DNA from: Mobula hypostoma
Lineage: Eukaryota
DNA: 64,000 nucleotides
Assembly (NCBI RefSeq): GCF_963921235.1
Contig: NC_086097.1
Coordinates: 15,996,001-16,060,000 of the forward strand
Reading direction: 5' to 3'
The notes under the pieces are model-generated. The model had not been told where the DNA came from and searched no databases. It saw only the letters and a program-made list of their open reading frames with translations. Each line of letters starts with the position of its first letter. The first letter of the stretch is position 1. This document shows, one piece after another, positions 8,290-64,000 of the stretch. Both the position numbers and the translations under genes were made by a program.

Positions 8290-10571
8290 AGAAAGTATCA
8301 GAATCAGGTCTATCAGGTGGAATATGGTTTGTGAACCATATGGGGAGGACATTAACAGACTTACTGATTGCATCACTGGCTACATCAACTTCTGTGTGGA
8401 CACTTTAGTACCATCAACGGCTGTTCACTACTTCCCTAACAACAGAGATCAGGAAACAGGGAGGAATTGAAACATGTACAGAGGGAGAGAAAGGAGAAGA
8501 TCAAGGTGGCTAAAGAGGAATACAGGGAGAGAGTGGAGAATAAGCTTGGGCAGGGTAGCACACAAGAGGTGTGGAGTGGCATGAAGAACATCACTGGCCT
8601 CAATCAGCCTAGCTGTAGAGCCTTGGAAAGCAGCCATGAATGGGCTAATGAGTTAAACAAGTTCTTCATTAGGTTTGACAACTACCCTCCTGTTCACACC
8701 ACCCTCAGCACACCAGTCCAGGTACAGAGACACCCAATGCTCACTCAGCACCAATGCCTCCCCTCCTCCATCCTCCCCCACTCCAATTTTATATGTGGAT
8801 GAACAACACAGGTTACCACTGTCTACATCCCTTCCTTGCCCTACACCTACAATCCAGGCTGGATGGTGGCGCAATGGCATCAGCGCTGGACTCCGGAGCG
8901 AAGGCTCCCGAGTTCGAATCCAAGTCGGGCCACCACTCGAGCACGCTTTCCATCCATGCCACGTCGAGCTAGCCACTCGGCCTCGTGAAAAAAAAGGGTC
9001 GAGTCAGGAACGGTCATATCGTGACCCGGTTAATCCGAAAGGAGACCAATCCTGACACCACACACCAGACAAGAATGGCTGATTGTCTGGTGCGACATGC
9101 AAAAAAAAACCTACTATCCACACCTCCACATAACAACTGCAATCGTCCCAATCTTCACGTCTCCCACCTTCTATCAACTCCCCACTCACCTTCACTACAT
9201 GTGAGAAGGGCTCTGGGAAAAGTCAGACACAGCAAAGCATTGGGACCGGATGGCATGAATCCTAAGGTACTGAAGGAGTGTTCTGAGCAGTTGTGTGGAG
9301 TTCTCCAGCACATTTTCAGTCTGAGTCTCAGCCTGGAAAGGGTCCTGAATGTGTGGAAAACATGTGTGGTCCCAGTAACCAAGAAAGGCCAACCAAAAGT
9401 CTCGAATGACCTACCATCCAGTGGCCTTATCTTCACACATCATGAAGACCCTAGAGAAGCTGGTCTTGGCTCACCTCTGACCCCTGGTCAAATCAGCCTT
9501 GATCCCCTGCAGGTTGGCTACAATGACAATATTGGAGTAACGATGCTGTCATCAAACTGCTAAACAGAGCCTAATCCTATTTGAATAAGCAAGGCAGCAC
9601 TGTGAGGATTATGATTTTTGATTTCTCAAGTGCCTTCAATATCTTACAGCCTCATTGCTGGGGGAAAGCTCCATTCAATAGAGATAGGCACTTCCATTGT
9701 ATCCTGGATAATGGACTACCTGACTGGCAGACCACAGTTTGTGTGGCTTCTCAGCTGTGTGTCAGACATGGCTATAAGCAGCACTGGGGCCCCACAGGGG
9801 ACTGTATTGGCTTCCTTCCTGTTTACCCTGTATACCTCGGACTTTAGATACAACACTGAGTCCTGTCATCTGCAGAAATTCTCTGATGACTCAGCAATAG
9901 TTGGGTGTATAAAGGGAAGACATGAGGATGAATACAGGGTCCTGGTGGAGGACTTTGTCTAATGGTGCAAGCTGAATAATCTGCAGCTCAGCATCAGTAA
10001 GACAAAGGAGATAGTGATGGACTTTAGGAAGACAAAGCCTGCATTGCTCCCTGTTACTATTGATGGTGAAAAAGTGGATATGGTGAGGACAGACTTGAGT
10101 AGGCACCAACACAGAGGCTGCTTATAAGAAGGGCCAGAGTCACCTCTATTTCCTGAGGAGACTGAGGTCCTTTGGATTACGTAGGCCTCTCCTTCACACA
10201 TTCTAACAGTCTGTTGTTGCCAGTACAATCTTCTATGCGGTGGTGTGCTTGGGCAATGGCATCAACACAAGTGATGCCAACAGGCTCAATAAACTGATTA
10301 GAAAGGCTGGGTCTGTTATAGGAGTCGAATTGGACATACTGGAGGCTGTGGTAGAACAAAGGACCCAATGGAAAATCCTGGCAACTCTGGGCAATGTTTC
10401 TCACCCTCTGCATGACACCTTGGCTGAACAGAGGAGCACTTTTAGTAATAGATTAAGACAACTGTGCTGATCCAAAGTATACTATATGTGGTCATTCTTA
10501 CCCTTGGCCATTAGGCTCTATAATGAGTCAACCTGTAGCCGGGGAAGTGATGATCTCCTCCTATTAGACTG
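8290..10571 (+). mobile_element. Rex-Babar-like LINE with RT, multiple frameshifts
   Basis: KALGPDG, FDFSSAFN, GAPQGTVL and LQKFSDD motifs. Confidence 0.88.
8857..9108 (+). mobile_element. tRNA(Arg)-like SINE with poly(A) tail, nested in the LINE
   Basis: A box TGGCGCAATGG, B box GAGTTCGAATCC, A9 tail, 12-bp TSD acctacaatcca/acctactatcca. Confidence 0.85.
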
Positions 10572-13075
10572 CAGAGGGTTATAGACTCAGCCAGCCCCAT
10601 AACAAGCACAGCCTTCCTCTCCACTGAGAATATTTTCAAATGGTGTTTCCTCAAGAAGATGACATCTATTATTTAGGATGCTCACCATCCAGACCTTGCA
10701 CTCTTCTCATTACTATCACTGGGAAGAAGATACAGGAGCATAAAGACCAATGTTTTAGAACAGCTTCCTCCTCTTCGCCATCAGATTTCTGAATCGTCCT
10801 CTTTTGCACTATTTACTTAATTATCTTACTGCAACTTATAGTAATTTTGGTGCTTTGCACTATACTGCTGCCGTAAAACAATGTGTATCAGTGATATTAA
10901 ACCTGATTCTGATTTTGACAAACTTTTATGACTCCTCAGAATGATGTATTAACTTTTTTTGGATGCACGTGGAGAGTACCTTGATGACTGCAGCAAGTAA
11001 CATATGACCAAAACCTGTACTCTTGTTCTTCACTTCCTTCATTTCCAATAGATATATTGTACCAGCACTGTTAATGAACTGGCAATAGAACCTAACTGTT
11101 AATGAAATGCTAATAAAATTCTGTAATTTGAGGAATATACATATATTTGCATACTGATTTGAATCTAATTGCATGACAGAAGAATTATTGGTATATTAAG
11201 AATATTAATGTCACAATAGTTTTTCTGTCATGCAAAATATTTATGTTATCATTATTAGTAGTATTATTAGTGGGATTATAAAAACATTGTTAATTTCCTG
11301 CTATTTGAGGATCAGAAGAGTTTGTTATATGGATCAATTACAAATATGTGTGGAGAAATGGCAGGTCTGGGTAAGTGTGAGGTCAAATGTAAGGGAACAA
11401 TCTATAGTTAATGGCAGGATCCTTTACAGCATCAGTACAAATGGATCATGGAGTCCAAGAACATAGCTCCACGAAAGTAGCCATGCAAGTAAATAAAGTG
11501 CTAAAGAAAGCATATGGCATGCTTACCTTTGTTGATTGGGCATTGAGTACAATGGTCATGAATTCATACTGCAGCTATTTAAAATTTTGGTTAGCCTTCA
11601 CTTAAAGTATGCTGTGCAATTTTGGTCACCCAATTAGAGGAAGGATATGGAGATTTTGCAAGGAATACAGAAGCAGTTTCGTAGGAAGCTTCTTCCACTC
11701 CACCAGATTTCTGAATAGTCCATGAACACTACCTTTCTATTCATCTTTAGCATGACTTATTGGCTTTTGTAACTTACAGTAATTTTTATGTCTTGCATTG
11801 TACTGTGGCCACAAAATAACAAATTTCACAACATATGTCGGTGATAATAGATAGTGTTACGTACCCCGTAACTGGGTTGCCAAACCAGCAGAAACGGACC
11901 ACTCAGTTGGAGTCTGGATTACTGGAACTAAGAAAGTTTTATTAAAGAAATAAGCAACACAGTACTCTAACAGTAAGGATATAAATGCAACAGGTTAGCA
12001 ATGAATAAACACACATGTACACAGAACTAGGATAATAGGGTCAATCAAGCTCTATCGCAGTCTAGGGGTAAGATGATCAATCACAAGTGACAGAGTTCAG
12101 TTTAGTTCAGTTCGTAGTAATCGCCGTCATGCCATTGGAGAGAGAGAGTGCGAATGCTGATATTCAAATCGGATTCAACAGACCTTTGATATTCCTTGCA
12201 GTTAGCTTTCGGACGAGCCCTTTGTAATGTCTTCTGAGGTCACCGACTGTGACCCCTCCATTCCAGACACGATCGTTCTTCAGTGGTGAACCCGGCACCC
12301 AGGCAAGGGCGGACACACACCAGGTTCCCGCCGACCGTATCTTTCCACCCTGTGCGTCTATGGCTGGTCCCGCGACCAGACCTCCAAAACTCCCACCGAC
12401 TTGTGGGAGCACACTGCTTCCAGGGTCTTGTTACCTCGTGGTGTCGTGTGTGGTGTCGTGTGTGGTGTCTGTTGCCTTAGCGAATATGTCCCTTTTTATC
12501 CCCCTGCTGGGGTATCGTCTGTCCATCACACTTCAAACAGTTCAGGGTTCAAAAGGAGCCGGTCTTGACAATACTCAGACCGGTGTCTCCTTCCGTTAAA
12601 CTCTCTCGTCTCTTCATTAACATTTCCAAATGCTGCTCCATTGTCTTACTTATCTCTCTCTCCTGAAGACAGGTGGCAGATCAACTGTTGATCCCACTGG
12701 TGCTAGCACAGGACAGTTAACATCTTAGTCTATGTGTACTTTTGTAACCCTCTTTCGTCACAATAGATACTTTATTGATTCCAAAGGAAATTACAATGTC
12801 ACAGCAGCATTAAGAGTGCACAGATATAAATATTAGAAGAGAAGCAGAAAGAATAAAATCTGATGGCGAAGAGGAGGAAGCTGTTCTAAAACATTGGTCT
12901 TTATGCTCCTGTATCTTCTTCCCAGTGATAGTAATGAGATGAGTGCAAGGCCTGGATGGTGAGCATCCTAAATAATAGATGTCATCTTCTTGAGGAAACA
13001 CCATTTGAAAATATTCTCAGTGGAGAGGAAGGCTGTGCTTGTTTTGGGGCTGGCTGAGTCTATAACCCTCTGCAG
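10569..13075. repeat. 220-bp inverted duplication (10569-10788 versus 12856-13075)
   Basis: Reverse-complement match with about 3 mismatches by eye. Confidence 0.92.
11855..12762. mobile_element. Solo LTR (Gypsy-like), 908 bp
   Basis: TGTTAC...GTCACA ends with a 4-bp TSD atag (11851-11854 and 12763-12766). Confidence 0.88.
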
Positions 13076-13325
13076 CCTCTATCAAAACTACACATTGGGG
13101 CCTCCATACTAGGCAGTTACGTAACCAGTCAGAATGCACTCCACCATACATCTGAAGAAATTTGTCTGAGTTCAAAGTTTGAAGTAAATTTATTATCAAA
13201 GTATGTAAATGTTACCATACCCTATGATTCAGTTTCTTGCAGGCATTCACCGTAGAACAAAGGAATACAACAAAATGAAAAACTACACACAAAGACTGAC
13301 AAACAATCAATGTGTATTATAGGGA

Positions 13326-13486
13326 AAAAAACGCAAACAACAGGAATTCTGCAGATGCTGGAAATTCAAGCAACACACATAAAAGTTGCTGGTGAACGCA
13401 GCATCTCTAGGAAACGTCGACTGCACCTCTTCCTAGAGATGCTGCCTGGCCTGCTGCGTTCACCAGCAACTTTTATGTGTGCTTCT
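13326..13486. mobile_element. Miniature inverted Penelope pLTR tail insertion
   Basis: Two oppositely oriented copies of the Penelope tail, with a 13-bp TSD tgtattataggga (13313-13325 and 13487-13499). Confidence 0.85.
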
Positions 13487-37991: not shown

Positions 37992-38230
37992 ACAAAGGAC
38001 ATAAAATTCCTGTTTCTGAATAAAATAGAGTTTGATGCCATGGAGGTATTTTGAAGGGTTTTATTTGGTTGCATCATTTTTTCATTACAAGCCTGCAAAG
38101 TCTGAGCCATCAAAGCCACCAATACATATCACACAAACAACAGGAATTCTGCAGATGCTGGAAATTCAAGCAACATACATCAAAGTTGCTGGTGAACGCA
38201 GCAGGCCAAGCAGCATCTATAGGAAGAGGT

Positions 38231-38270
38231 GCAGTCGACGTTTCAGGCCGAGACCCTTCGTCAGGACTAA
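38231..38270 (-). ncRNA. Minimal hammerhead ribozyme, inverted pLTR copy
   Basis: Reverse complement of 40632-40670. Confidence 0.85.
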
Positions 38271-40631
38271 CCGAAGGAAGAGTGAGTAAGGGATTTGAAA
38301 GTTGGAGGGGGAGGGGGAGATCCAAAAGGATAGGAGAAGACAGGAGGGGGAGGGATAGAGCTGAGAGCTGGACAGGTGATAGGCAAAAGGGGATACGAGA
38401 GGATCATGGGACAGGAGGTCCAGGAAGAAAGACAAGGAGGGGGGGGTTGACCCAGAGGATGGGCAAGAGGTATATTCAGAGGGACAGAGGGAGAAAAAGG
38501 AGAGTGAGAGAAAGAATGTGTGCATAAAAATGAGTAACAGATGGGGTACGAGGGGGAGGTGGGGCCTTAGTGGAAGTTAGAGAAGTCGATGTTCATGCCA
38601 TCAGGTTGGAGGCTACCCAGACGGAATATAAGGTGTTGTTCCTCCAACCTGAGTGTGGCTTCATCTCCACAGTAGAGGAGGCCGTGGACAGACATGTCAG
38701 AATGGGAACGGGATGTGGAATCCACTGCTACCAACCTTATAGTTCCCACACCCCGCACTTCCTGTTTCTACCTCCTACCCAAGATCCACAAACCTGCCTG
38801 TCCTGGCCGACCTATTGTCTCAGCTTGCTCCTGCCCCACCGAACTCATTTCTGCATACCTCGACACTGTTTTATCACCCCTTGTTCAATCCCTTCCGACC
38901 TATGTTCGTGACACTTCTCACGCTCTTAAACTTTTCGATGATTTTAAGTTCCCTGGCCCCCACCGCTTTATTTTCACCATGGATGTCCAGTCCTTATATA
39001 CTTCCACCCCCATCAGGAAGGTCTCAAAGCTCTACGCTTCTTTTTGGATTCCAGACCTAATCAGTTCCCCTCTACCACCACTCTGTTCCGTCTAGCGGAA
39101 TTAGTCCTTACTCTTAATAATTTCTCCTTTGGCTCCTCCCATTTCCTCCAAACTAAAGGTGTAGCTATGGGCACCCGTATGGGTCCTAGCTATGCCTGCC
39201 TTTTTGTTGGGTTTGTGGAACAATCTATGTTCCGTGCCTATTCTGGTATCTGTCCCCCACTTTTCCTTCGCTACATCGACGACTGCATTGGCGCTGCTTC
39301 CTGCACGCATACAGAACTCGTTGACTTTATTAACTTTGCCTCCAACTCTCACCCTGCCCTCAAGTTTACCTGGTCCATTTCCGACACCTCCCTCCCCTTT
39401 CTAGATCTTTCTGTCTCTGTCTCTGGAGACAGCTTATCCACTGATGTCTACTATAAGCCTACTGACTCTCACAGCTATCTGGACTATTCCTCTTCTCACC
39501 CTGTCTCTTGCAAAAACGCCATCCCCTTTTCGCAATTCCTCCGTCTCCGCTGCATCTGCTCTCAGGATGAGGCTTTTCATTCTAGGACGAGGGAGATGTC
39601 TTCCTTTTTTAAAGAAAGGGGCTTCCCTTCCTCCACTATCAACTCTGCTCTTAAACGTATCTCCCCCATTTCACGTACATCTGCTCTCACTCCAACCTCC
39701 CACCACCCCACTAGGAATAGGGTTCCCCTGGTCCTCACCTACCACCCACCAGCCTCCGGGTCCAACATATTATTCTCCGTAACTTCCGCCACCTCCAACA
39801 GGATCCCACCACTAAGCACATCTTTCCCTCCCCCCCTCTCTCTGCATTCCGCAGGGATCGCTCCCTACACAACTCCCTTGTCCATTCGTCCCCCCCATCC
39901 CTCCCCACTGATCTCCCTCCTGGCACTTATCCGTGTAAGCGGAACAAGTGCTACACATGCCCTTACACTTCCTCCCTCACCACCATTCAGGGCCCCAAAC
40001 AGTCCTTCCAGGTGAGGCATCACTTCACCTGTGAGTCGACTGGGGTGATATACTGCGTCCGGTGCTCCCGATGTGGCCTTTTATATATTGGTGAGACCCG
40101 ACGCAGACTGGGAGACCGCTTTGCTGAACATCTACGCTCTGTCCGCCAGAGAAAGCAGGATCTCCCAGTGGCCACACATTTTAATTCCACGTCCCATTCC
40201 CATTCTGACATGTCTGTCCACGGCCTCCTCTACTGTGGAGATGAAGACACACTCAGGTTGGAGGAACAACACCTTATATTCCGTCTGGGTAGCCTCCAAC
40301 CTGATGGCATGAACATCGACTTCTCTAACTTCCGCTAAGGCCCCACCTCCCCCTCGTACCCCATCTGTTACTCATTTTTATGCACACATTCTTTCTCTCA
40401 CTCTCCTTTTTCTCCCTCTGTCCCTCTGAATATACCTCTTGCCCATCCTCTGGGTCAACCCCCCCCCCGTCTTTCTTCCCGGACCTCCTGTCCCATGATC
40501 CTCTCGTATCCCTTTTGCCTATCACCTGTCCAGCTCTCGGCTCTATCCCTCCCCCTCCTGTCTTCTCCTATCATTTTGCATCTCCCCCTCCCCCTCCAAC
40601 TTTCAAATCCCTTACTCACTCTTCCTTCAGT

Positions 40632-40670
40632 TAGTCCTGACGAAGGGTCTCGGCCTGAAACGTCGACTGC
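40632..40670 (+). ncRNA. Minimal type I hammerhead ribozyme in the Penelope pLTR
   Basis: agtc-CTGACGA-agg(gtctcgg)cct-GAAA-c-GTC-gact: conserved core, stem I agtc/gact, stem II and a minimal stem III. Confidence 0.85.
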
Positions 40671-40789
40671 ACCTCTTCCTAGAGATGCTGCTTGGCCTGC
40701 TGCGTTCACCAGCAACTTTGATGTATGTTGGTTGAATACATATCACACATAATCTGCAAGGATTTGTTGCCCTCTCGTTTATTAAAGAC

Positions 40790-43840: not shown

Positions 43841-44458
43841 AGCTTCTTCTTTTGTACATATAGTAATTAAAAATATAAACTTAATTGAATAGTCTGGAGG
43901 AACACTTAGTAAACAAGGTAAATGCCGCAAAATTTTGTACTTCCACTCCATCTCTCATGGCCATAAGATTAAACTCCATCATAAAACAGCATTGCATAAA
44001 AAAATCAAAAGAATGTCTAGATATATTTAGAAGAGAAGGATATGAAACTGGGTAGAGGACAGGTGGAATGGAATACATGGAAACGCAAATAAAAGTTCCA
44101 GCAGCGAGAAAAGAAACTATTATTTTATTTTTCTCTCCTTATCTTCTCTACTCGTCACCGATCTAATGCCGTCTCCCAAGTCCACCCCTTCTTACTGTTT
44201 CCATCTGCCTATCAGCTTCCTCCTCACCAATTTGCATCTATCACCTGTCTCATTTCTCCGTCACATCTTTATGTTGGCTACCTCCATTTACCCTGAAAGA
44301 TTGTCTATCTCTTTGCTTCCACGAATGCTGCCCGACCTACTAAGTTCTTCCAGCAGCTTGTTTTTTGCTTCAAATGACAGCATTTGAAGTCTATAGAAAT
44401 GAAAAAGAACTGCTCCATGAAACTTTAAAATATTCAACAGAACAAAGCAGGATTTCAA

Positions 44459-44576
44459 GCAACACACATCAAAGTTGCTGGTGAACGCAGCAGGCCAGGC
44501 AGCATCTCTAGGAAGAGGTGCAGTCAACGTTTCAGGCCGAGACCCTTCGTCAGGACTAACTGAAGGAAGAGTGAGT
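44459..44576 (-). mobile_element. 118-bp Penelope pLTR fragment containing a hammerhead (44520-44560, GUU triplet)
   Basis: Matches the 40612-40734 tail; 14-bp TSD aagcaggatttcaa (44445-44458 and 44577-44590). Confidence 0.88.
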
Positions 44577-51716: not shown

Positions 51717-52469
51717 CGCAAACACGAGGAAATCTGCAGATGCTGGAATTTCAAGCAAGATGCATAAAAATTGCTGGTGAACGCAGCAGGCCAGGCAGCA
51801 TAGAGGAGGCCGTGGATAGACATATCAGAATGGGACTGGGACGTGGAATTAAAATATGTGGCCACTGGGAGATCCTGCTTTCTCTGGTGGACAGAGAGTA
51901 GGTATTCAGCAAAACGGTCTCCCAGCCTGCGTCGGGTCTCGCCAATATATAGAAGGCCGCATCTTTACTGTCAAGATGAAACCACACTCAAGTTGGAGGA
52001 ACAACACCTTATATTCCGTCTGGGTAGCCTCCAACCTGCTGGCATGAACATTGACTTCTCTAACTTCCGTTAATGCCCCACCTCCCCTTCGTACCCCATC
52101 CGTTATTTATTTATTTTTTATTTTTATTTTTTTTCTCTCTCTCTCCTTTTTCTCCCTCTGTCCCTCTCACTATACTCCTTGCCCATCCTCTGGGTTTCCC
52201 CCCTCCCCCTTTCTTTCTCCCTAGGCCTCCCGTCTCATGATCCCCTCATATCCCTTTTGCCAATCAATTTTCCAGCTCTTAGCTCCATCCCTCCCCCTCC
52301 TGTCTTCTCCTATCATTTCGGATCTCCCCCTCCCCCTCCCACTTTCAAATCTCTTATTATCTCTTCTTTCAGTTAGTCCTGACGAAGGGTCTCTGCCCGA
52401 AATGTCGACTGTACCTCTTCCTAGAGATGCTGCCTGGCCTGCTGCGTTCACCAGCAATTTTTATGAGTG
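51717..52469 (+). mobile_element. Penelope-like fragment with inverted 5' part and hammerhead (about 52374-52412), inserted in CR1
   Basis: 51717-51960 is antisense tail plus GIY-YIG and 51961-52469 is sense. 14-bp TSD taacatggttagag/taacatagttagag. Confidence 0.88.
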
Positions 52470-54672: not shown

Positions 54673-57498
54673 GTGGGAGAGTCAAGGACAAGAGGACACA
54701 GCCTCAGGATAGAGGGGCACCCTTTCAAAACAGAGATGCAGAGAAATTTCTTTAGCCAAAGGGTGGCGAATGTGTGGAATTTGTTGCCAAATGCCGCTGT
54801 GGAGGCCATGTTGTTTGGTGTATTTAAGGCAGAGATTGATAGGTTCTCCATTGGACATGGCATCAAAGGTTATGGGGAGAAGGCCGGGAACTGCAGTTGA
54901 GGAAGAGATTAAAAAAAAAGGATCAGCCATGTTTGAATGGTGGAGCAGACTTGATAATTCCGCTCCTATTTCTGATGGTCATATAGTCTTATGGACAGGC
55001 TGTTACTTGGCAAAGGTGTACTCGAAAAGTAGGAGGCCTTCAAAAATGAAATTTTCAGAGTACAGTACAAAGCTTGTATGTGCCCGTCAGAATAAAGAGG
55101 CAAAGGTAAGAAGTGCAGGAAACCTTGGTTTATAAGAGAAATTGAAGCCCTGGTGAAGAAAAAAAAGGAGGTGCATAGCAAGTATAGGCAGGTAGGAACA
55201 AATGAAGTGCTCATGGAGTACAAAAAATGCAAAATAACATTTAAGAAAGAAATCCGGAGGGCTAAAAAAAGGTATGAAGTTGATCTGATAGACAAAATGA
55301 AGGAGAATTCTTAGGGCTCATTGCATCTCTTCTGGGGAAAAGTATGAACTGTACAAAAGTGATGGTTTGCACCTGAACCCAAGGGGGACCAATATTCTAG
55401 CAGGCAGGTTTGTTAGAGCTGTTGGGAAGAGTTCAAACTAATTTGGTAGGGAGATGGGAAGGGACTCAGGATAGGACGGATGGTAAAAAACAAAGACAGC
55501 ATGTAGTCAGACAGTCAGGGAGGACAGGCAGATGATAGAACAAGATGGCAGCCAGATGGGTGAGTATCAATGCAATAGGGATGCAGAATCAAAAAGGGTA
55601 GCAAATACAGTACTCAAAGTTTATATCTCAAAGCACGGAGTATAAGAAACAAGGTGGATGATCTTGTTGCGCTATTACAGATTTGTCAAATTTTATGTTG
55701 TGGCCATCAGTGAATCGTGGCTGAAGGATGGTGAATGTCCAAGGTTACACATTGTATCGGAAGAAGAGGAAAATAGGCAGAGGGGTTAGCGTGTCGCTGC
55801 TGGTAAAGAATTGCATCAACTCAATTGGAAGTTTGGACATAGGATCGTAAGATGGTGAATCCTTGTGAGTTAAGAAACAGCAAGGGTAAAAGGACCATGA
55901 TGGCAGTTATATACAGGGCTCCCAACAGTAGCTGGGATGTGGACCATAGATTGCAATGGGAAATAGAAAAGGTGTGTCAAAAGGGCAATGATAGTCATGG
56001 GAGATTTCAACATGCAGGTCGACTGGGAGGATCACGTTGGTAATGGATCTCAAGAGAGTGGACTTGTTCAATGGCTTTTTAGAGCAGTTTGTCATTGAGC
56101 TAACTAGGGGATCATTGTGTGTTATGTAATAAACCAAAGGTGATTAGAGAGCGGAGTAAAAGAACCCTTAGGAGGCAGTGATCACAATATGATTGAGTTC
56201 AACTTGAAATTTGATAGGGAGAAAGTAAAGTTTGACATAGCAGTACTTCAGTGAAGTAAAGGAAATTACAGTGGTATGGGAGAGGAGTTGGCCAAAGCAA
56301 ATTTGAAGGAGATGCTGGCAGGGATGACAGCAGAATAGCAATGCCACGAGCTTCTGGGAAAAATGAGTAAAGTGAAGGATAGATGTATTCCAAAGACATT
56401 TTTCCACGATCTAATTGTAAATTTTTTTGTATATTTTCTTTTCTTGCTGGCGGTTTGATGTTTATTTTTAGAAGTTTTTGTATGACGCATGGCTCCGGGG
56501 TTGTACACCCAATGGGTTCTTTTTTTTCTCTCACTTTTCTGCTTAGTAGGTTTTTTTTGTTATCACAAAAATTTTTTTAATCTTTAAGACAATTTTTTTT
56601 TGAGGCATTCTAAGTGTTGTTACTTCAATGTACTCATGTTATTTTTCCTGCATAATATAACAATAAAAAGATTTGAAAAGAAAGAAAGAAAAAAGAAGAA
56701 AGAAAAACAAAGAAATACTCAAACGGCAAAATAGTACACCCGTGGCTGACAAGGGAAGTCAAAGCTAATCTAAAAGCAAAAGGGAGGGCATATAACAAAG
56801 CAAGAATTAGTGGGAAGATAGAAGATTGGGAAGCTTTTAAAAACCTACAGAGAGCATATTAAATAATAATAAGGAGGGTAAAGATGAGATATGAAAGCAA
56901 GCTAGCAAGCAATATGAAAGTGGATAGTAAAAGCTTTTCCAACTACGTAAAAAATAAAAGAGAGATGACAGTGGATTATAGGACCACTGGAAAATGAGGC
57001 TGGAGAAATAATAATGGGGAACAAGGAGATGGCAGATAAACTAAATGAGTACTTTGCATCAGTCTCTACTGTGAAAGACACTAGCAGTGAGCTGGATGTT
57101 GAAGGGTAGGAGGAAAGTTACAATTGCAAGGGAGAAGGTGCTCAAAAAGCTGAAAGACCTAAGGGTACATAAATCAAAAGACCAGATGAACTACATCCAA
57201 AGGTTCTGAAACAGGTAGCGGTAAAGGTTGTAGAAGCATTAGTAATGATCTTTCAAAAATTATTGGACTCTGGCATGATGCCAGAGGACTGGAAATTTGC
57301 AAATGTCAGTCCACCCTAAGAAAGGAGGAGGGCAGCAGAAAGGAAATAATAGACCAGTTAGCCTGACCTCAGTGTTTGGGAAGATACTGGAGTCAATTGT
57401 TAAGGATTAGGTTATGGAATACTTGGTGACACAGGACAAGATAGGACAAAGTCAGTGTGGTTTCCTTCAGGGAAAATCTTGCCTCTGAGATCTGTTGG

Positions 57499-57709
57499 TG
57501 TTGTGTATGTGGCCTGGTTACACAACAGTGCTATTAATAAAAATGCTGGAGATGGGAGCTAAGTTTTATGGTTCTTTACTGGCATAATCCAAACTCGGCA
57601 CACGCATACAGATCAATACGCGCCTAATAGCACTTGCAACGACATGTTACTGAAACATAAAGTAGTCCTTTATTATAATGTAGGCTATACAGTACACTCC
57701 TCCCCTTTT
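57499..57709 (-). mobile_element. Short (~198 bp) putative 3' LTR with adjacent polypurine tract
   Basis: The minus strand reads aaaaggggaggag (57709-57697), then immediately TGTACTG...CACAACA (57696-57499). It interrupts a CR1 RT region at ..atctgttgg|. Confidence 0.7.
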
Positions 57710-57807
57710 ATTTTAATAATGTATCAACTATTTTTTTTATTGGGGCATTATGCTACAAATATATGTTTACCCTTAACATATGCCTACCATTTGTTTACTT
57801 AGCAACT

Positions 57808-57884
57808 TAATAATATCAAATTATAACAAAGTAATGTAATAATATCTAATTATAACAAAGTAATGTAATAGTATCAAATTATAA
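57808..57884. repeat. 29-bp AT-rich tandem repeat, about 2.6 copies
   Basis: The unit taataatatcaaattataacaaagtaatg is repeated. Confidence 0.85.
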
Positions 57885-57896
57885 TGCCTTTTTTTT

Positions 57897-58764
57897 ACTT
57901 TTGGTCTAAGACCCATTTATAATTCAAGTCTCGGTGGGGGAGGGGGGTCTTCTCTAGATTGTCTGGCACTGAAGCAAATAGGTCTTCTCTCTATTGTCTG
58001 GAATAAATTGAACAATCCACAAATTGGCAGGTTCCAGCCATAAAGAGTAGTCACCTCCACCTTGCAAAGATGATGAAAGCAAAGTGAAATCCGTGAAAAG
58101 GTGAACGTTATTCTTAAAAATATGTACAATCATCAAAACTGAGATGGCATTGGAAAGTGTCTTCAAATAGTGTGTTCTTCAGTCTGTCAATAAACTTGTT
58201 TGTTTTAATACAGATTTCCATATAAAAGTAATGAAAATTTGACCTCTGAGCATAGGGAGTTAAGAAGATGTGGACCTCCAACTTGCTCAAAATTCTAGGC
58301 AGCAGGTCGCCTCTGTATAATGAAGACTCCTCTGGGCAGCTGTCCTGGATATATATGCATCTTTGTGCTACCACTTGTCTTCCTTACCCATATCTCATTT
58401 GTTCCAACTGAGCCAATCTTCGTATTCTCCTTAGATTCCAAATAGATAGCCTGACCTTTATGATACCATCTCTTATCGTTATATAACTTTCCATCTTCTA
58501 TTTGTGCTTCATATCTTTGTGCTGATGATTCAGCAGGGGTGCTGGGAAGATGCTCAGGAGAAGATGGAGATGCTGATCTTTTTGGAGATTTAAGCTTATT
58601 GAGAGTTCGCAGATCTTCCATTATCTGTTTATCTGTTAACAAGTAATTTAACTGCACAGGTGCAGGCTTTCGTCTTTTGTCTGTAATTGGAGCAGGGTCG
58701 TTAGGTCTCCTCCTTAGTTTCCTAGTCATTATTGGCTTTTCCTCCATAGAATCTCCTGTGAGTT
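57897..58764 (-). pseudogene. SUDS3: SUDS3 processed pseudogene, C-terminal coding part (stop at 58295) and probable 3' UTR
   Basis: [50 protein letters not shown] is the Sin3-HDAC subunit SDS3 C-terminus. No introns; an A8 remnant follows at 57889-57896. Confidence 0.92.
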
Positions 58765-59340
58765 ATAGACAATAGGTGCAGGAGTAGGCCATTCGGCCCT
58801 TCGAGCCAGCACCGCCATTCACTGTGATCATGGCTGATCATCCACAATCAGTATCCAGTTCCTGCCTTATCCCCATAACCTTTGATTCTGCTATCTTTAA
58901 GAGCTCTATCCATCTCTTTCTTGAAAGCATCCAGAGACTTGGCCTCCACAGCCTTCTGGGGCAGAGCATTCCATATATCCACCACTCTCTGGGTGAAAAA
59001 GTTTTTCCTCAACTCCGTTCTAAATGGCCTACCTCTTATTCTTAAACTGCGGCCTCTGGTTCTGGACTCACCCATCAGTGGAAACATGCTTCCTGCCTCC
59101 AGCATGTCCAATTCCTTAATAATCTTATATGTTTCAATAAGCTCCCCTCTCATCCTTCTAAATTCCAGAGTATACAAGCCCAGTTGCTCCAATCTTTCAA
59201 CATATGACAGTCCTGCCATCCCGGAAATTAACCTTGTGAACCTACACTGCACTCCCTCAATAGCAAGAATGTCCTTCCTCAAATCTGGAGACCAAAACTG
59301 CACACAGTACTCCAGGTGTGGTCTCACCAGGGCCCTGTAC
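58765..59340 (-). mobile_element. Young CR1 3' end inserted into the SUDS3 retrocopy
   Basis: [21 protein letters not shown], open to its stop codon; 4-bp TSD agtt (58761-58764 and 59341-59344). Confidence 0.92.
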
Positions 59341-59477
59341 AGTTCCATTGTTAGCCTCTCATTCTTAATCATCTTTTTCTTTTCTTCTAACTCAATCTTT
59401 TTATCTTCAAATTCCTTCACTGCTGCTTTCTTCTCGTTAATATAATTCCTTTCCACTTGTTCTGTCTCCAGTTACAG
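59341..59477 (-). pseudogene. SUDS3: SUDS3 processed pseudogene, middle piece: [45 protein letters not shown]
   Basis: Joins in frame to both neighbouring pieces once the CR1 inserts are removed. It has a TAA at the Gln codon and an in-frame deletion. Confidence 0.92.
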
Positions 59478-62400
59478 ATGTCAGGCAGAGTCGTGGTAGT
59501 AGGGGACTCCATAGTAAGAGGTAAAGAAAGGAGTTTCTGTGGCAACAGGCGGGATTTAAGGATGGTGTGTTGCCTCCCTGGTGCCAGGATTCAGGACATC
59601 ATGGACCGATTGCAGGGCATCCTCAAGGGTGAAGGTGAACAGCCAGAAGTGGTAGTGCTGATAAATCCCCAGGCCCTGATGATCTGCATCTCAGGTTACT
59701 TAAGGAGGTGGCTCTAGAAATCGTGGACGCATTGGTAATCATTTTCCAATGTTCTATAGATTCAGGATCAGTTCCTGTGGATTGGAGGGTAGCTAATGTT
59801 ATCCCACTTTTTAAGAAAGGAGGGAGAGAAAACAGGGGATTATAGACCAGTTAGCCTGACATCAGTGGTGGGGAAGATGCTGGAGTCAATTATAAAAGAT
59901 GAAATAGCGGCACATTTGGATAGTAGTAACAGGATTGGTCTGAGTCAGCATGGATCTACGAAGGAGGAATCAAGCTTGACTAATCTTCTGGAATTTTTTG
60001 AGGATGTAACTATGAAAATGGACAAGGGAGAGCCAGTGGATGTAGTGTACCTGGACTTTCAGTAAGCTTTTGATAAGCTCCAACATAGGAGATTAGTGGG
60101 CAAAATTGGAGCACGTGGTATTGGGGGTAGGGTACTGACATGGATAGAAAATTGGTTGGCAGACAGGAAACAAAGAGTAGGGATTAACGGGTCCCTTTCA
60201 GAATGGTAGGTGGTGACTAGTGGGGTACCACAAGGCTCGGTGCTGGGACCGCAGCTATTTACAATGCACAAGGGGAGTTGAGTATAGGAGCAAAGAGGTC
60301 CTTCAAGAGTTGTACGGGGCCCTGGTGAGACCACACCTGGAGTATTGTGTGCAGTTTTGGTTTCCAAATTCTAGGAAGGACATTCTTGCTATTGAGGGAG
60401 TGCAGCGTAGGTTCACGAGGTTAATTCCCGGGATGGCGGGACTGTCATATGTTGAAAGTTTGGGAGGGTTTAAACTAATTTGCGAGGGGGATGGGACCCA
60501 GAGTGATAGAGCAGTGAAATAAGTGCATGGAGTAAAGCCAGATCTAACATACAGAGAGGCTTTGAGGAAAGAGAAGCAGAATAAATGGTGTAAAGACAGT
60601 AAGGTAGAAGGGCTGAAATGTGTGCACCTCAATGCAAGAAGCATCAGGAACAAAGGTGATGAACTAAGAGCTTGGATACATACATGGAATTATGATGTAG
60701 TGGCCATTACAGAGACTTGGCTGGCACCAGGGCAGGAATAGATTCTCAATATTCCTGGATTTCAGTGCTTTAAAAGGGATAGAGAGGGCGGAAAAAGGGG
60801 AGGAGGGGTGGCATTACTGGTCAGGGATACTATTACAGCTACAGAAAGGGTGGGTAATGTAGCAGGATCCTCTTTTGAGTCGATATGGGTGGAAGTCAGG
60901 AACAGGAAGGGAGCAGTTACTCTACTGGGGGTATTCTATAGGCCCCCTGGTAGCAACAAAGATACAGAGGAGCAGATTGGGAGGCAGATTTTGGAAAGGT
61001 GCAAAAATAACAGGGTTGTTATAATGTGTGACTTTAACTTCCCTAACATTGATTGGCACTTGATTAGTTCCAAGGGTTTAGATGGGGCAGAGTTCGTTAA
61101 GTGTGTCCAGGACGGATTCCTGTCACAGTATGTGGACAGGCCAACCAGGGGGAATGCCATACTAGATCTAGTACTAGGTAATGAACTGGGTCAGGTCACA
61201 GATCTCTCAGTGGGTGAGCATCTGGGGGACAGTGACCACCACCCCCTGGCCCTTAGCATTATCATGGAAAAGGATAGAATTAGAGAGGACAGGAAAATTT
61301 TTAATTGGGGAAAGGCAAATTATGAGGCTGTAAGGCTAGAACTTGTGGGTGTGAATTGGGATGATGTTTCTGCAGCAAAATGTACTATGGACATGTGGTC
61401 GATGTTTAGAGATCTCTTGTGGGATGCTAGGGATAAATTTGTCCCGGTGAGGAAGATAAAGAATGGTAGGGTGAAGGAACCATGGGTGACAAGTGAGGTG
61501 GAAAATCTAGTCAGGTGGAAGAAGGCAGCATACATGAGGTTTAGGAATCAAGGATCAGATGGGTCTATTGAGGAATATAGGGAAGCAAGAAAGGAGCTTA
61601 AGAAGGGGCTGAGAAGAGCAAGAAGGGGGCATGAGAAGGCCTTGGCGAGTAGGGTAAAGGAAAACCCCAAGGCATTCTTCAATTATGTGAATTAAAAAAG
61701 GATGACAGGAGTGAAGGTAGGACCGATTAGAGATAAAGGTGGGAAGATGTGCCTGGAGGCTGTGGAAGTGAGCAAGGTCCTCAGTGAATACTTCTCTTCG
61801 GTATTCACCAATGAGAGGGAACTTGATGATAGTGAGGACAATATGAGTGAGGTTGATGTTCTGGAACATGTTGATATTAATGGAGAAGAGGTGTTGGAGT
61901 TGTTAAAATACATTAGGACAGATAAGTCCCCGGGGCCTGTCAGAATATTCCCCAGGCTGCTCCACGAGACGAGAGAAGAGATTGCTGAGCCTCGTTGTCC
62001 ACGGGAATGGTACCGGAGGATTGGAGGGAGGTGAATATTGTCCCCTTGTTCAAAAAAGGTAGTGGGGAAAGTCTGGGTAATTATAGACCAGTGAGCCTTA
62101 TGTTTGTGGTGGGAAAGCTGTTGGAAAAGATTCTTAGAAATAGGATCTATAGGCATTTAGAGAATCATGGTCTGATCAAGGACAGTCAGCATGGCTTTGT
62201 GAAGGGCGGATCGTGTCTAACAAGCCTGATAGAGTTCTTTGAGGAGGTGACCAGGCATATAGATGAGGGTAGTGCAATGGATGTGATCTATCTGGATTTT
62301 AGTAAGGCATTTGACAAGGTTCTACATGGCAGGCTTATTCAGAAAGTTAGAAGGCATGGGATCCAAGGAAGTTTGGCCAGGTGGATTCAGAATTGGCTTG

Positions 62401-63862
62401 CCTGCAGAAGGCAGCGGGTGGTGGTGGAGGGAGTACATTCAGATTGGAGGATTGTGACTAGTGGTGTCCCACAAGGATCTGTTCTGGGACCTCTACTTTT
62501 CGTGATTTTTATTAACAACCTGGATGTGGGGGTAGAAGGGTGGGTTGGCAAGTTTGCAGGTGACACAAAGGTTGGTGGTGTTGTAGATAGTGTAGAGGAT
62601 TGTCAAAGATTGCAGAGAGACATTGATAGGATGCAGAAGTGGGCTGAGAAGTGGCAGATGGAGTTCAATCCGGAGAAGTGTGAGGTGGTACACTTTGGAA
62701 GGACAAACTCCAAGGCAGAGTACAAAGTAAATGGCAGGATACTTGGTAGTGTGGAGGAGCAGAGGGATCTCGGGGTACATGTCCACAGATCCCTGAAAGT
62801 TGCCTCACAGGTAGATAGGGTAGTTAAGAAAGCTTATGGGGTGTTAGCTTTCATAAGTCGAGGGATAGAGTTTAAGAGTCATGAGGTAATGACGCAGCTC
62901 TATAAAACTCTGGTTAGGCCACACTTGGAGTACTGTGTCCAGTTCTGGTCACCTCACTATAGGAAGGATGTGGAAGCATTGGAAAGAGTACAGAGGAGAT
63001 TTACCAGGATGCTGCCTGGTTTAGAAAGTATGCATTATGATCAGAGATTAAGTGAGCTAGGGCTTTACTCTTTGGAGAGAAGGAGGATGAGAGGAGACAT
63101 GATAGAGGTGTACAAGATAATAAGAGGAATAGATAGAGTGGATAGCCAGCGCCTCTTCCCCAGGGCACCACTGCTCAATACAAGAGGAGATGGCTTTAAG
63201 GTAAGGGGTGGGAAGTTCAAGGGGGATATTAGAGGAAGGTTTTTTACTCAGAGAGTGGTTGGTGCGTGGAATGCACTGCCTGAGTCAGTGGTGGAGGCAG
63301 ATACACTAGTGAAGTTTAAGAGACTACTAGACAGGTATCTGGAGGAATTTAAGGTGGGGGCTTATATGGGAGGCAGGGTTTGAGGGTCGGCACAACATTG
63401 TGGGCCAAAGGGCCTGTACTATGTTCTATGTTCTAAGATTGGAGCGACTGGGCTTGTATTCACTGGAATTTAGAAGGATGAGAGGGGATCTGATCGAAAC
63501 ATATAAGATTATTAAGGGATTGGACACGCTAGAGGCAGGAAACATGTTCCCGATGTTGGGGGAGTCCAGAACCAGAGGCCACAGTTTAAGAATAAGAGGT
63601 AGGCCATTTAGAACGGAGTGGAGGAAAAACTTTTTCACCCAGAGAATTGTGGATCTGTGGAATGCTCTACCTCAGAAGGCAGTGGAGGCCAATTCTCTGG
63701 ATGCTTTCAAGAAAGAGTTAGATAGAGCTCTTAAAGATAGTGGAGTCAAGGGATATGGAGAGAAGGCAGGAACGAAGTACTGATTGTGGATGATCAGCCA
63801 TGATCACAGTGAATGGCAGTGCTGGCTCGAAGGGCCGAATGGCCTATTGTCTAATGTCTATT
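59478..63862 (+). mobile_element. Outer CR1 (internally deleted: ORF1 piece, RT pieces, 3' end) inserted in the SUDS3 retrocopy
   Basis: GDSIVRG..MVCCLPGA (ORF1) is joined to ORF2 RT. The sequence ..gttgaaag|attggagcga.. is split by the inner element; ends in a (tgtcta)n-type tail. Confidence 0.85.
60459..63435 (+). mobile_element. Inner CR1 with near-complete ORF2 (APE endonuclease and RT), inactivated
   Basis: ORFs 60523-60741, 60808-61695, 61702-62034 and 61995-63383, broken by stops and a frameshift. Catalytic FADD reads FAGD; (tgttcta)n tail. Confidence 0.93.
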
Positions 63863-64000
63863 AAAAAGCTCTGCATTTCATATTCTTTCCTTGTATTGTT
63901 GATCTAGTTTCTTCATTCTTTTCTGAAAAGTACTTTCCTGTAAGTGCTGTAGCTGTCTTCTGAGAGATGTCAATTTCTCCTGGTACATCTGCTCTTTTAC
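63863..64000 (-). pseudogene. SUDS3: SUDS3 processed pseudogene, upstream piece running off the window: [45 protein letters not shown]
   Basis: Manual translation of the minus strand matches the recalled SDS3 coiled coil [42 protein letters not shown]. Contains a TGA stop. Confidence 0.9.

What the first reader, a model, noticed from the sequence alone, without database searches (positions are those of the whole stretch)
57499..64000. SUDS3 mRNA apparently captured inside an LTR retroelement
Seen, on the minus strand in order: intronless SUDS3 CDS (64000-63863, 59477-59341, 58764-58295), about 400 nt of probable 3' UTR, an A8 tract (57896-57889), about 180 nt of AT-rich spacer, a polypurine tract aaaaggggaggag directly abutting TG, and a 198-bp TG..CA unit that interrupts a CR1. 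Known: PPT followed by TG is the signature of a 3' LTR, and LTR-mediated retroposition by template switching is described in several animals. Ordinary LINE-made retrocopies end in poly(A) plus a TSD instead. Inference: a non-autonomous LTR element carried a Sin3-HDAC corepressor cDNA as cargo, possibly as a multi-copy family. A transposon carrying a chromatin-silencing subunit would be noteworthy.
Basis: partly seen in the sequence, partly recalled or inferred. Interest (0 to 1): 0.85.

Follow-up and report, generated by a model that had tools for sequence, protein, structure and literature searches.

The report
Jumping element carrying host SUDS3 gene
A defective Ty3/Gypsy jumping element swapped its copying enzymes for a spliced copy of the host chromatin-silencing gene SUDS3 and then spread to hundreds of places in this fish genome, which explains why that gene seems to have so many "retrocopies".

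Summary
The window ends inside a complete non-autonomous Ty3/Gypsy LTR retrotransposon.

- **Ends.** The second 198-bp LTR lies 1.9 kb beyond the window, followed by a tRNA-Ser primer-binding site. A 5-bp duplication (CCAAC) flanks the whole element.
- **Content.** Between the LTRs, gag and protease read in frame into an intronless SUDS3 copy. It has 12-19 nt of 5'UTR, a full CDS with a family-wide 24-nt deletion, and 342 nt of 3'UTR. It replaces RT-RNaseH-integrase.
- **Parent and partner.** The intron-bearing parental gene (at least 59 kb) and the autonomous partner element are both in the genome.
- **Breakpoints.** The 5' one lies in a 7-nt microhomology (GGGCAGC). The 3' one lies in mid-3'UTR, 11 codons before the pol stop.
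- **Correction.** The A8 tract is not the mRNA's poly(A). It sits 57 nt inside element sequence that one autonomous copy also carries.
- **One capture, many copies.** The chimeric 5' junction occurs at least 254 times and the partner's junction at least 179 times. All 39 copies examined share the 3' junction, 10 of 12 complete ones have their own 5-bp duplications, and none has an intact frame.
- **Age and selection.** LTR pairs are about 90% alike. No selection signal was found.

The mechanism, LTR-mediated retroposition, is known. The scale in a vertebrate is unusual.

The parts
57494..57498 (.). 3' copy of the 5-bp target-site duplication (CCAAC on the minus strand). The 5' copy is at L009 2087-2083, window-equivalent 66087-66083.
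   Evidence: Read directly. 10 of 12 other complete copies have their own perfect 5-bp duplications.
57499..57696 (-). 3' LTR, 198 bp, TG..CA.
   Evidence: 180/198 identical to the 5' LTR at L009 2082-1885. The LTR+spacer query had 1543 first-look candidates; 40 were scored and matched at 88-100%.
57697..57709 (-). Polypurine tract aaaaggggaggag abutting the LTR.
   Evidence: The same tract lies before the LTR in the autonomous copy L062.
57710..57916 (-). Element-native 3' untranslated region after the pol stop. It includes the A8 tract (57889-57896) and roughly 33-bp AT-rich tandem repeats.
   Evidence: It aligns to the autonomous copy L062, including TTAAAAAAAAGC. The repeat part also aligns to L064 and L065.
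57917..57952 (-). Remnant of the 3' end of pol: the last 11 codons plus the stop TAA at 57917-57919.
   Evidence: Homologous to the pol ends of three autonomous copies, L062, L064 and L065 (GAAGACC..GAGACTTGAGTTATAA). Present in 39 of 39 family copies.
57953..58294 (-). Captured fragment of the SUDS3 3'UTR, 342 nt, with no poly(A).
   Evidence: Part of a 416/443 (93.9%) gap-free alignment to the parental last exon and 3'UTR (L066). The parent continues differently after 57953.
58295..58764 (-). SUDS3 CDS block 3 (C-terminal 155 codons plus stop TAG). This copy has its own 12-nt deletion at about 58410.
   Evidence: The 12-nt insertion relative to the window is seen in contigs of two runs (table 4) and in alignment A1.
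58765..59340 (-). Nested CR1-like LINE 3' fragment. It is a later insertion, absent from other copies.
   Evidence: Other copies join 59341 directly to 58764. The ORF carries the ..[15 protein letters not shown].. motif.
59341..59478 (-). SUDS3 CDS block 2. It holds the family-wide 24-nt deletion site (GAGTT at about 59393-59389).
   Evidence: The deleted form is in 35 of 40 copies and the long parental form in 0 of 40. The parent has the extra ELKENLIA codons.
59479..63862 (+). Nested 4.4-kb LINE (CR1-like) material, a later insertion. Endonuclease ORF at 60742-61695 and RT ORF at 61989-63383.
   Evidence: Other copies join 63863 directly to 59478. Pfam Exo_endo_phos_2 and RVT_1.
63863..64000 (-). 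SUDS3 CDS block 1. It continues beyond the window to the ATG at window-equivalent 64174-64172. Upstream lie 12 nt of 5'UTR, the GGGCAGC junction (64193-64187), protease, gag, PBS and the 5' LTR (to 66082).

Best explanation
The finding is the 3' two-thirds of one copy of a non-autonomous Ty3/Gypsy LTR retrotransposon family.

- **Layout.** The internal region reads 5' LTR, tRNA-Ser PBS, leader, gag (CCHC knuckles), aspartic protease, SUDS3 mRNA fragment, last 11 pol codons, 3' untranslated region, PPT, 3' LTR.
- **Cargo.** The SUDS3 fragment (12-19 nt of 5'UTR, whole CDS, 342 nt of 3'UTR) replaces about 2.7 kb of RT-RNaseH-integrase. It is in frame with gag-protease, so the ancestral element encoded a Gag-PR-SDS3 fusion of about 725 aa.
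- **Origin (inferred).** During reverse transcription of the autonomous element, the polymerase left the element RNA near the end of pol. It copied a co-packaged spliced SUDS3 mRNA from mid-3'UTR to its 5'UTR, slipping once between two GAGTT repeats, which caused the 24-nt deletion. It then returned to the element RNA at a 7-nt microhomology just after protease.
- **Spread (inferred).** The chimera kept every cis signal, so the partner's RT and integrase copied and inserted it in trans. It reached at least 254 copies, each with its own 5-bp duplication.
- **Fate.** All copies examined are now decayed, and this one later took up two LINE insertions.

Shown here: the structure, both breakpoints, the parent, the partner, the single origin, the copy number and the decay. 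Inferred: template switching inside the particle, mobilisation in trans, and any activity of the fusion protein.
For: **LTR-element anatomy**
- The two LTRs are 180/198 identical and CCAAC flanks both ends.
- The PBS is complementary to 11 nt of tRNA-Ser(GCU)+CCA. The own copy carries one substitution in it.
- The PPT abuts the 3' LTR.

**Gypsy identity**
- The knuckle-protease part is 55-58% identical to gag-pol polyproteins of about 1311 aa.
- Pfam places those domains in the order PR, RT, RNaseH, IN.

**Partner in the same genome**
- Colinear matches to residues 2-1315 of P0005 are present.
- Copy L061/L062 aligns to the own element up to 64187 and again from 57943, and through the LTR.

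**Parent with introns on another contig**
- Exon 1 ends GATGAAG|GTAAC. The last exon starts after ..TTTCTTACAG. Three exons lie 39 and 19.5 kb apart.
- Own versus parent: 416/443 in the last exon and 3'UTR, 119/133 in exon 1.

**Breakpoints**
- 5': the parent reads ..GGCGGGCAGC|TCGGCGGGGAAGATG and the partner reads ..GGAGGGCAGC|AAGGCTAC.
- 3': the parent reads ..AATCTGGA|ACATTTT and the element reads ..AATCTAGA|GAAGACC.., which is the pol end.

**In frame**
- The own ORF runs from the knuckle through protease into SUDS3, 312 + 40 aa.

**Single capture**
- The 5' junction is in register in 33 of 39 copies.
- The 3' junction is present in 39 of 39.
- The 24-nt deletion is present in 35 of 40, with 0 of 40 long forms.

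**Amplification by integration**
- 10 of 12 complete copies have distinct perfect 5-bp duplications.
- Pattern counts: 254 chimeric 5' junctions, 113 chimeric 3' junctions, 179 partner junctions, 549 protease ends. All controls gave 0.

**Published mechanism**
- It is described with the same hallmarks: replaced ORF, microsimilarity of median 6 bp, 3' truncation, no poly(A), secondary retroposition (Tan et al. 2016, PMC5131818, passages read).
Against: - **3' junction.** It shows only 0-3 nt of microhomology. The family has AGA where the present parent has GGA.
- **5' junction.** It could equally have formed at the DNA level. For example, an element inserted upstream of SUDS3, a microhomology-mediated deletion followed, and a read-through transcript was spliced. 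Nothing here tells that route from an RT switch.
- **Pfam.** Hits on the own gag and protease are below the curated cut-offs (20.6 vs 27 bits; 18.4 vs 28.2 bits). The assignment rests on the 55-58% identity to polyproteins.
- **Sampling.** The 39 copies are the best-scoring of 551 candidates, so they are not a random sample.
- **Copy numbers.** They are lower bounds from short patterns.
- **Cargo function.** No evidence that the cargo mattered. Pairwise dN/dS in frame is 0.526, against 0.534 and 0.717 in the shifted frames (34 copies).
- **Mobilisation in trans.** This is inferred only.
Confidence: 0.9

Rival explanations
1. Classical read-through transduction, as for retroviral oncogenes. An autonomous element lay upstream of SUDS3 exon 1. 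A DNA deletion fused protease to the 5'UTR. The read-through transcript was spliced and packaged, and only the 3' junction came from a non-homologous RT switch.
For: The cargo starts in exon 1 just upstream of the ATG and is fully spliced. The 7-nt microhomology would also fit a microhomology-mediated deletion. The 3' junction is nearly non-homologous.
Against: No element remnant was seen in the 203 nt upstream of the parental junction that I fetched (L067), though this is a short stretch. Tan et al. 2016 report microsimilarity at 25 of 29 junctions, including 5' ones, for the two-switch route. The end product is the same either way.
Confidence: 0.12
2. An ordinary LINE-made processed pseudogene of SUDS3 landed inside a pre-existing Gypsy element, and the composite then spread.
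For: LINEs (CR1-like) are abundant here and have inserted into this very copy twice. An A8 tract lies downstream of the cargo.
Against: - The A8 tract is 57 nt inside element sequence that the autonomous copy L062 also has.
- The cargo ends in mid-3'UTR while the parental 3'UTR runs on.
- No direct repeat flanks the cargo.
- The cargo replaces about 2.7 kb of pol instead of interrupting it.
Confidence: 0.03
3. The SUDS3 copies spread by segmental duplication, or are assembly artefacts, rather than by transposition.
For: Many near-identical stretches could in principle come from duplication.
Against: Flanks differ, and 10 of 12 complete copies have different 5-bp duplications. Matches are on many contigs. 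Homology between copies stops at the LTR ends.
Confidence: 0.01
4. The Sds3-like ORF is an original gene of this retroelement lineage rather than a captured host gene.
For: It is in frame with gag-protease.
Against: - The autonomous copies have RT at that place.
- The cargo carries host 5' and 3' UTR sequence identical in register to the intron-bearing gene.
- SDS3 orthologues occur across vertebrates.
Confidence: 0.01

Closest known systems
LTR-mediated retroposition chimeras (Tan et al. 2016, Genome Res, PMC5131818; passages read)
   Same: An intronless partial mRNA replaces part of the internal ORF of an LTR retrotransposon. Both LTRs are kept, there is microsimilarity at a switch point, the cargo is 3'-truncated, and it has no poly(A) or duplication of its own. 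The paper also notes that the chimera can transpose again.
   Different: The published animal cases are single or few copies (two Drosophila retrocopies with more than one site). This one reached at least 254 copies, carries a complete CDS in frame with gag-protease, and is old (LTR pairs about 90% alike).
Bs1 of maize and rice retrocopies inside LTR elements (as cited in PMC5131818; otherwise recalled)
   Same: A non-autonomous LTR element carrying host gene fragments that is transcribed and re-transposed as a pseudo-LTR retrotransposon.
   Different: Those are plant elements with fragments of several genes and low copy number. This is a vertebrate element with one whole CDS in hundreds of copies.
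Acutely transforming retroviruses with Gag-Onc fusions (textbook knowledge, recalled)
   Same: A replication-defective element in which pol is replaced by a spliced host cDNA fused in frame to gag. It depends on a helper for RT and IN, and its junctions lie at short homologies.
   Different: This is an endogenous Ty3/Gypsy element with no env. It spread in the germ line, not horizontally. There is no evidence that the cargo has any effect.
HERV-K capture of FAM8A1 in human (Jamain 2001, as cited in PMC5131818)
   Same: A vertebrate LTR element carrying a processed host gene, with microsimilarity at the fusion points.
   Different: That case is a single untranscribed locus. This is a large family.
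LINE-made processed pseudogenes
   Same: An intronless copy of a host mRNA.
   Different: There is no poly(A) and no duplication around the cargo. The cargo is truncated in both UTRs, flanked by LTR-element sequence, and inserted by integrase with a 5-bp duplication around the whole element.

Membership tests
Ty3/Gypsy LTR retrotransposon (non-autonomous derivative) | Two direct LTRs ending TG..CA, flanked by a short target-site duplication | tested here: met
   198-bp LTRs, 180/198 identical. CCAAC flanks both sides. 10 of 12 other complete copies have perfect 5-bp duplications.
Ty3/Gypsy LTR retrotransposon (non-autonomous derivative) | Primer-binding site complementary to a tRNA 3' end next to the 5' LTR, and a polypurine tract next to the 3' LTR | tested here: met
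   TGGCGACGAGG lies 3 nt after the LTR in 18 copies printed. The own copy reads TGACGACGAGG. It is complementary to ..CCTCGTCG+CCA of a tRNA-Ser(gct) gene of this genome. ARAGORN places the tRNA ends one base further out on each side, so the reading of the discriminator base is mine. PPT at 57709-57697.
Ty3/Gypsy LTR retrotransposon (non-autonomous derivative) | Gag with CCHC knuckle and a D(T/S)G aspartic protease related to Gypsy polyproteins | tested here: met
   CX2CX4HX4C and DTGS read. 55-58% identity over 213-223 aa to gag-pol polyproteins. Pfam hits on the own copy are below cut-off.
Ty3/Gypsy LTR retrotransposon (non-autonomous derivative) | Domain order PR-RT-RNaseH-IN in the pol of the family | tested here: met
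   Met for the partner. P0005 Pfam positions are PR 294-382, RVT_1 508-649, RNaseH 712-843, integrase 955-1145. Genome copies are colinear with residues 2-1315. The element in the window itself has no RT, RNaseH or IN.
LTR-mediated retrocopy (template-switch chimera) | Cargo lacks the introns of a parental gene present elsewhere | tested here: met
   Parental exons lie on contig C78 at about 8439.6, 8400.2 and 8380.6 kb. A GT donor follows exon 1 and a pyrimidine tract plus AG acceptor precedes the last exon.
LTR-mediated retrocopy (template-switch chimera) | Cargo replaces, rather than interrupts, internal element sequence | tested here: met
   Partner and chimera diverge after ..GGGCAGC, just after protease. 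They rejoin 11 codons before the pol stop.
LTR-mediated retrocopy (template-switch chimera) | Microsimilarity at the switch points | tested here: inconclusive
   5' junction: 7 nt, GGGCAGC (9 of 10). 3' junction: 0-3 nt, depending on whether the parent read AGA at the time.
LTR-mediated retrocopy (template-switch chimera) | No poly(A) tail and no duplication belonging to the cargo | tested here: met
   The cargo ends at 57953 in mid-3'UTR. The A8 tract belongs to the element.
LINE-made processed pseudogene | Poly(A) at the 3' end of the copied mRNA and a duplication flanking it | tested here: not met
SDS3/SUDS3 (Pfam Sds3, PF08598) | Sds3 domain and orthology to annotated SDS3 | tested here: met
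   Tested on the cargo of a copy with an open frame. Sds3 scores 28.7 bits against a cut-off of 25.4. It is 88% identical to an annotated SDS3 of 327 aa. The own C-terminal 155 aa alone gave 0 Pfam families.

The most novel reading that the evidence does not exclude
The cargo was not a passenger. The in-frame Gag-PR-SDS3 polyprotein (or SDS3 released from it by the element's own protease) interfered with, or recruited, the Sin3-HDAC silencing complex in the germ line. That would be why this chimera came to match or outnumber its autonomous partner (at least 254 vs at least 179 junction matches). A wider corollary follows: the other top 'retrocopy parents' reported for cartilaginous fishes may also be LTR-element cargo rather than LINE products.
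Probability: 0.1. Interest if true: 0.85.

Novelty: new member of a known kind. Interest (0 to 1): 0.6.

Why it matters
- **Anatomy of a capture.** It is a fully dissected vertebrate example of an LTR retrotransposon transducing a whole host coding sequence. The parent, the partner and both breakpoints are in hand. The chimera then amplified to hundreds of copies, far beyond the single-digit copy numbers in the animal cases I read about (PMC5131818).
- **Annotation and censuses.** It explains an annotation artefact. Several 'SDS3-like' gene models in ray genomes carry the family's 8-aa deletion, and two carry protease-derived residues. A 2026 preprint (10.64898/2026.06.26.734816, passages read) lists SUDS3 among the five commonest retrocopy parents of cartilaginous fishes and ties retrocopy numbers to non-LTR elements. 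Counts of that kind can be inflated by one capture followed by transposition.
- **Choice of cargo.** A subunit of the Sin3-HDAC repressor is a suggestive cargo for a transposon. I found no evidence that it acted.

Tried and rejected
- **Earlier findings.** The word look-up for SUDS3 found nothing and the look-up by place returned nothing.
- **First try for the parent.** Shortened by one letter, it gave 0 hits. Later the reason became clear: the parent shares GGGCAGC with the element.
- **L063.** This was meant to be the 3' end of a fourth autonomous copy. It did not contain it, because my coordinates were off.
- **Far flank.** The far flank of the insertion found no match in the window at E 1e-8. 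The 'interrupted CR1' therefore rests on the near flank and on my reading of the motif.
- **tRNAs.** There is no tRNA gene in the window.
- **Selection test.** Pairwise Nei-Gojobori dN/dS on the SUDS3 part of 34 of 39 copies (5 dropped for under 80% coverage) gave 0.526 in frame, against 0.534 and 0.717 in the shifted frames. There is no signal either way.
- **Expression.** No RNA holder is listed. The laid runs are contigs whose RNA label is a guess.
  - Two of them follow the parental 3'UTR past the breakpoint.
  - One 'RNA?' contig and two DNA contigs bridge the chimeric 3' junction.
  - I draw no conclusion on transcription of the family. Parts without cover mean nothing.
- **Mobulid genome preprint.** 10.64898/2026.10.27.761883 has 0 occurrences of SDS3, SUDS3 or 'retrocop'.
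- **Literature searches.** Searches found no description of this family. bioRxiv supplements are closed, so the retrocopy tables of 10.64898/2026.06.26.734816 could not be checked.
- **Not tried.** I did not test whether the same Gypsy family carries other cargo. I also made no census with a proper repeat library.

Full report
**What is there**

On the minus strand the window ends inside an intronless SUDS3 copy. It lies in three blocks: 64000-63863, 59478-59341 and 58764-58295. Comparison with 11 other copies shows that the blocks are contiguous elsewhere. The intervening 63862-59479 (4384 bp) and 59340-58765 (576 bp) are therefore later insertions. The larger one carries LINE endonuclease and RT ORFs on the plus strand.

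**The whole element**

The genome that holds the window can be searched, and I fetched the 10 kb beyond the window as L009.
- **5' LTR.** A second copy of the 198-bp unit lies at L009 2082-1885 (window-equivalent 66082-65885) and is 180/198 identical.
- **Duplication.** CCAAC stands directly outside both LTRs.
- **PBS.** Three bases inside the 5' LTR, 18 other copies read TGGCGACGAGG; the own copy has one change. That is the complement of ..CCTCGTCG plus CCA.
  - A 21-mer ending so recurs unchanged at 15 of 20 pattern matches in the genome. The total was not above the backwards-read control (41).
  - One such place is called tRNA-Ser, anticodon gct, by ARAGORN.
  - ARAGORN sets the tRNA ends one base further out than I do.
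- **ORFs.** Then follows a gag ORF with CCHC knuckles and an aspartic protease (DTGS). It runs, without a stop and in frame, into the SUDS3 start..IQLDWHTIKALDVSAKEGSSVGK-MSTALLSP... It goes on into the window.
- **Length.** Without the two nested LINEs the element measures 3624 bp. Twelve other complete copies measure 3342-4364 bp.

**Which kind of element**

The knuckle-protease part is 55-58% identical to gag-pol polyproteins of about 1311 aa from fishes, named 'K02A2.6-like' or 'Gypsy retrotransposon integrase-like' by their sources. One of them, P0005, has the Pfam order protease, RT, RNaseH, integrase. Pfam on the own gag and protease is below cut-off. Searching the genome with P0005 found colinear copies covering residues 2-1315 (35 of 73,959 first-look candidates scored).

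**Breakpoints**

I fetched the junction regions of one such copy (L061, L062) and the 3' ends of two more (L064, L065).
- **5' side.** Partner and chimera align up to window-equivalent 64187 (..CAAAGGAGGGCAGC). The partner then continues AAGGCTACATCC.., which encodes ..SKATSERLSQIL and is homologous to the fish polyprotein. The chimera continues TCGG(C/T)GGGGAAG ATG.
- **3' side.** The chimera's GAAGACC(C-run)GAGACTTGA(A/G)TTATAA is the end of pol with its stop codon in all three partner copies.
- **A8 tract.** The A8 tract and the 30 nt before it are also in L062.
- **Consequence.** The A8 tract is not the tail of the SUDS3 mRNA. The 'spacer' is the element's own 3' untranslated region.

**The parental gene**

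Proteins returned for the cargo include a canonical SDS3 of 327 aa. Several 'SDS3-like' models from two ray species lack eight residues, ELKENLIA, and two of them start with protease-derived residues.
- **Internal exon.** Back-translated patterns for the eight extra residues hit one place in the genome, contig C78:8400164-8400205.
- **Other exons.** Patterns for the C-terminus and for an N-terminal peptide each gave a hit on the same contig and strand, at 8380638 and 8439529, among 50 and 23 matches.
- **Last exon (L066).** The exon starts after ..TTTCTTACAG. It aligns to the own copy without gaps at 416/443 from 58395 to 57953. The parent then runs on as ACATTTTTTCCTG...
- **Exon 1 (L067).** The exon reads ..GGCGGGCAGCTCGGCGGGGAAGATG.. 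and ends GATGAAG|GTAAC.
- **5' switch.** The 5' switch therefore lies within GGGCAGC, which the parent's 5'UTR and the partner share (7 nt; 9 of 10).
- **3' switch.** The 3' switch has 0-3 nt in common.
- **24-nt deletion.** In the parent the 24 nt missing from the family lie between two GAGTT repeats within one exon. They were lost by slippage, not by splicing.

**One event, many insertions**

- **Shared junctions.** The 5' junction is in the same register in 33 of 39 further copies; the other six are truncated or disrupted there. The 3' junction is in 39 of 39.
- **Shared deletion.** The deleted form is in 35 of 40 copies and the long form in none.
- **Separate insertions.** Of the 39 copies, 12 had two full LTRs in the span fetched. 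Ten of those have perfect, mutually different 5-bp duplications. In the other two the LTR end is altered.
- **Genome-wide pattern counts.** All controls gave 0.

| Pattern | Mismatches allowed | Matches |
|---|---|---|
| Protease-end 25-mer | up to 2 | 549 |
| Chimeric 5' junction 32-mer | up to 3 | 254 |
| Chimeric 3' junction 28-mer | up to 3 | 113 |
| Partner's own junction 32-mer | up to 3 | 179 |

- **Limits.** These counts are lower bounds. The 39 copies are the best-scoring of 551 candidates, so they are not a random sample.

**State and age**

- **Frames.** None of the 39 copies keeps the full frame of about 725 aa; the longest open stretch is 407 aa. One keeps the cargo frame open.
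- **LTR divergence.** LTR pairs of 13 elements are 86.9-92.8% identical, mean 90.2% by my arithmetic. Different copies are about as far from each other (89-93%). This fits one old burst.
- **Date.** With an assumed rate of 1e-9 per site per year, which no call supports, this is about 50 million years.
- **Selection.** Pairwise dN/dS over the cargo is 0.526 in frame and 0.534 and 0.717 in the shifted frames. No selection is visible.
- **Changes private to this copy.**
  - A 117-bp tandem duplication of the knuckle region.
  - A 12-nt deletion at about 58410.
  - The two LINE insertions.

**Other organisms**

Contigs of public runs from several coded organisms share words with the stretch, the best share being 0.37. 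Laid on the window, two small runs follow the parental 3'UTR past 57956. One contig of another run, and two DNA contigs, bridge the chimeric 3' junction. The RNA labels are guesses, so I make no claim on expression.

**How it most likely arose and works**

The features match the published model of LTR-mediated retroposition (PMC5131818, passages read). In that model RT switches from the element RNA to a co-packaged mRNA and back. It leaves a partial, intronless, poly(A)-less cargo in place of internal ORF sequence, between two LTRs, and able to transpose again.
- **A rival route for the 5' junction.** A DNA-level fusion upstream of exon 1, followed by read-through, is not excluded.
- **Dependence on the partner.** The chimera keeps LTRs, PBS, leader, gag, protease and PPT but no RT or integrase. 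It must therefore have used the partner's enzymes. This step is inferred.

**Comparison and novelty**

The kind is known. The published examples are:
- the animal chimeras of Tan et al.;
- Bs1 of maize;
- HERV-K/FAM8A1;
- by analogy, Gag-Onc retroviruses.

What is new here:
- a whole host CDS fused in frame to gag-protease;
- amplification to hundreds of copies in a vertebrate;
- the cargo being a Sin3-HDAC subunit.

My searches found no description of the family. The only related mention is that SUDS3 is among the five commonest retrocopy parents in cartilaginous fishes, in a preprint that links retrocopy numbers to non-LTR elements. Its supplements could not be read.

**Verdict**

This is a new member of a known kind, of moderate to good interest.

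Noticed in passing
L009 about 800-920 (window-equivalent 64800-64920): This copy alone has a tandem duplication of about 117 bp in the gag zinc-knuckle region. All 10 of the 11 compared copies that reach this region align the same segment twice. It introduces a stop codon.
   Followed up: partly
L032, L046, L047 and others: The family has two LTR length forms, 198 and 223 bp, differing by a 25-bp indel. In at least 3 of 12 complete copies the two LTRs of one element are of different forms. That should not be so at integration, so it points to later conversion or deletion, or to recombinant templates.
   Followed up: no
window 38164-40737 and 10566-13078: Long, nearly perfect inverted repeats. 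Arms of 283 nt at 99% and 228 nt at 97% lie about 1.5-2.1 kb apart. Arms of 223 nt at 98% lie 2.1 kb apart. They may be elements with long terminal inverted repeats.
   Followed up: no
window 13334-13416, 38134-38216, 44423-44505, 51719-51801: An 83-nt repeat (..GCAGATGCTGGAAATTCAAGCAACACACATCAAAGTTGCTGGTGAACGCAGCAGGCC..) occurs four times in the window at 71-100% identity (family D14). It was not identified.
   Followed up: no
window 60742-63383 (+): The LINE nested in the element still has long open frames for endonuclease (317 aa) and RT (464 aa). It is therefore much younger than its host element.
   Followed up: partly
proteins P0048-P0051, P0075, P0143: Public annotations call several family copies 'SDS3-like' genes. 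They share the 8-aa deletion, and two include protease-derived residues. These look like transposon cargo, not gene duplicates.
   Followed up: partly
L009 2192-2689 (-): The LINE ORF in the far flank hits Pfam ALKBH8_N (33 bits). This is probably a LINE-derived segment within that Pfam family rather than a real AlkB relative.
   Followed up: no
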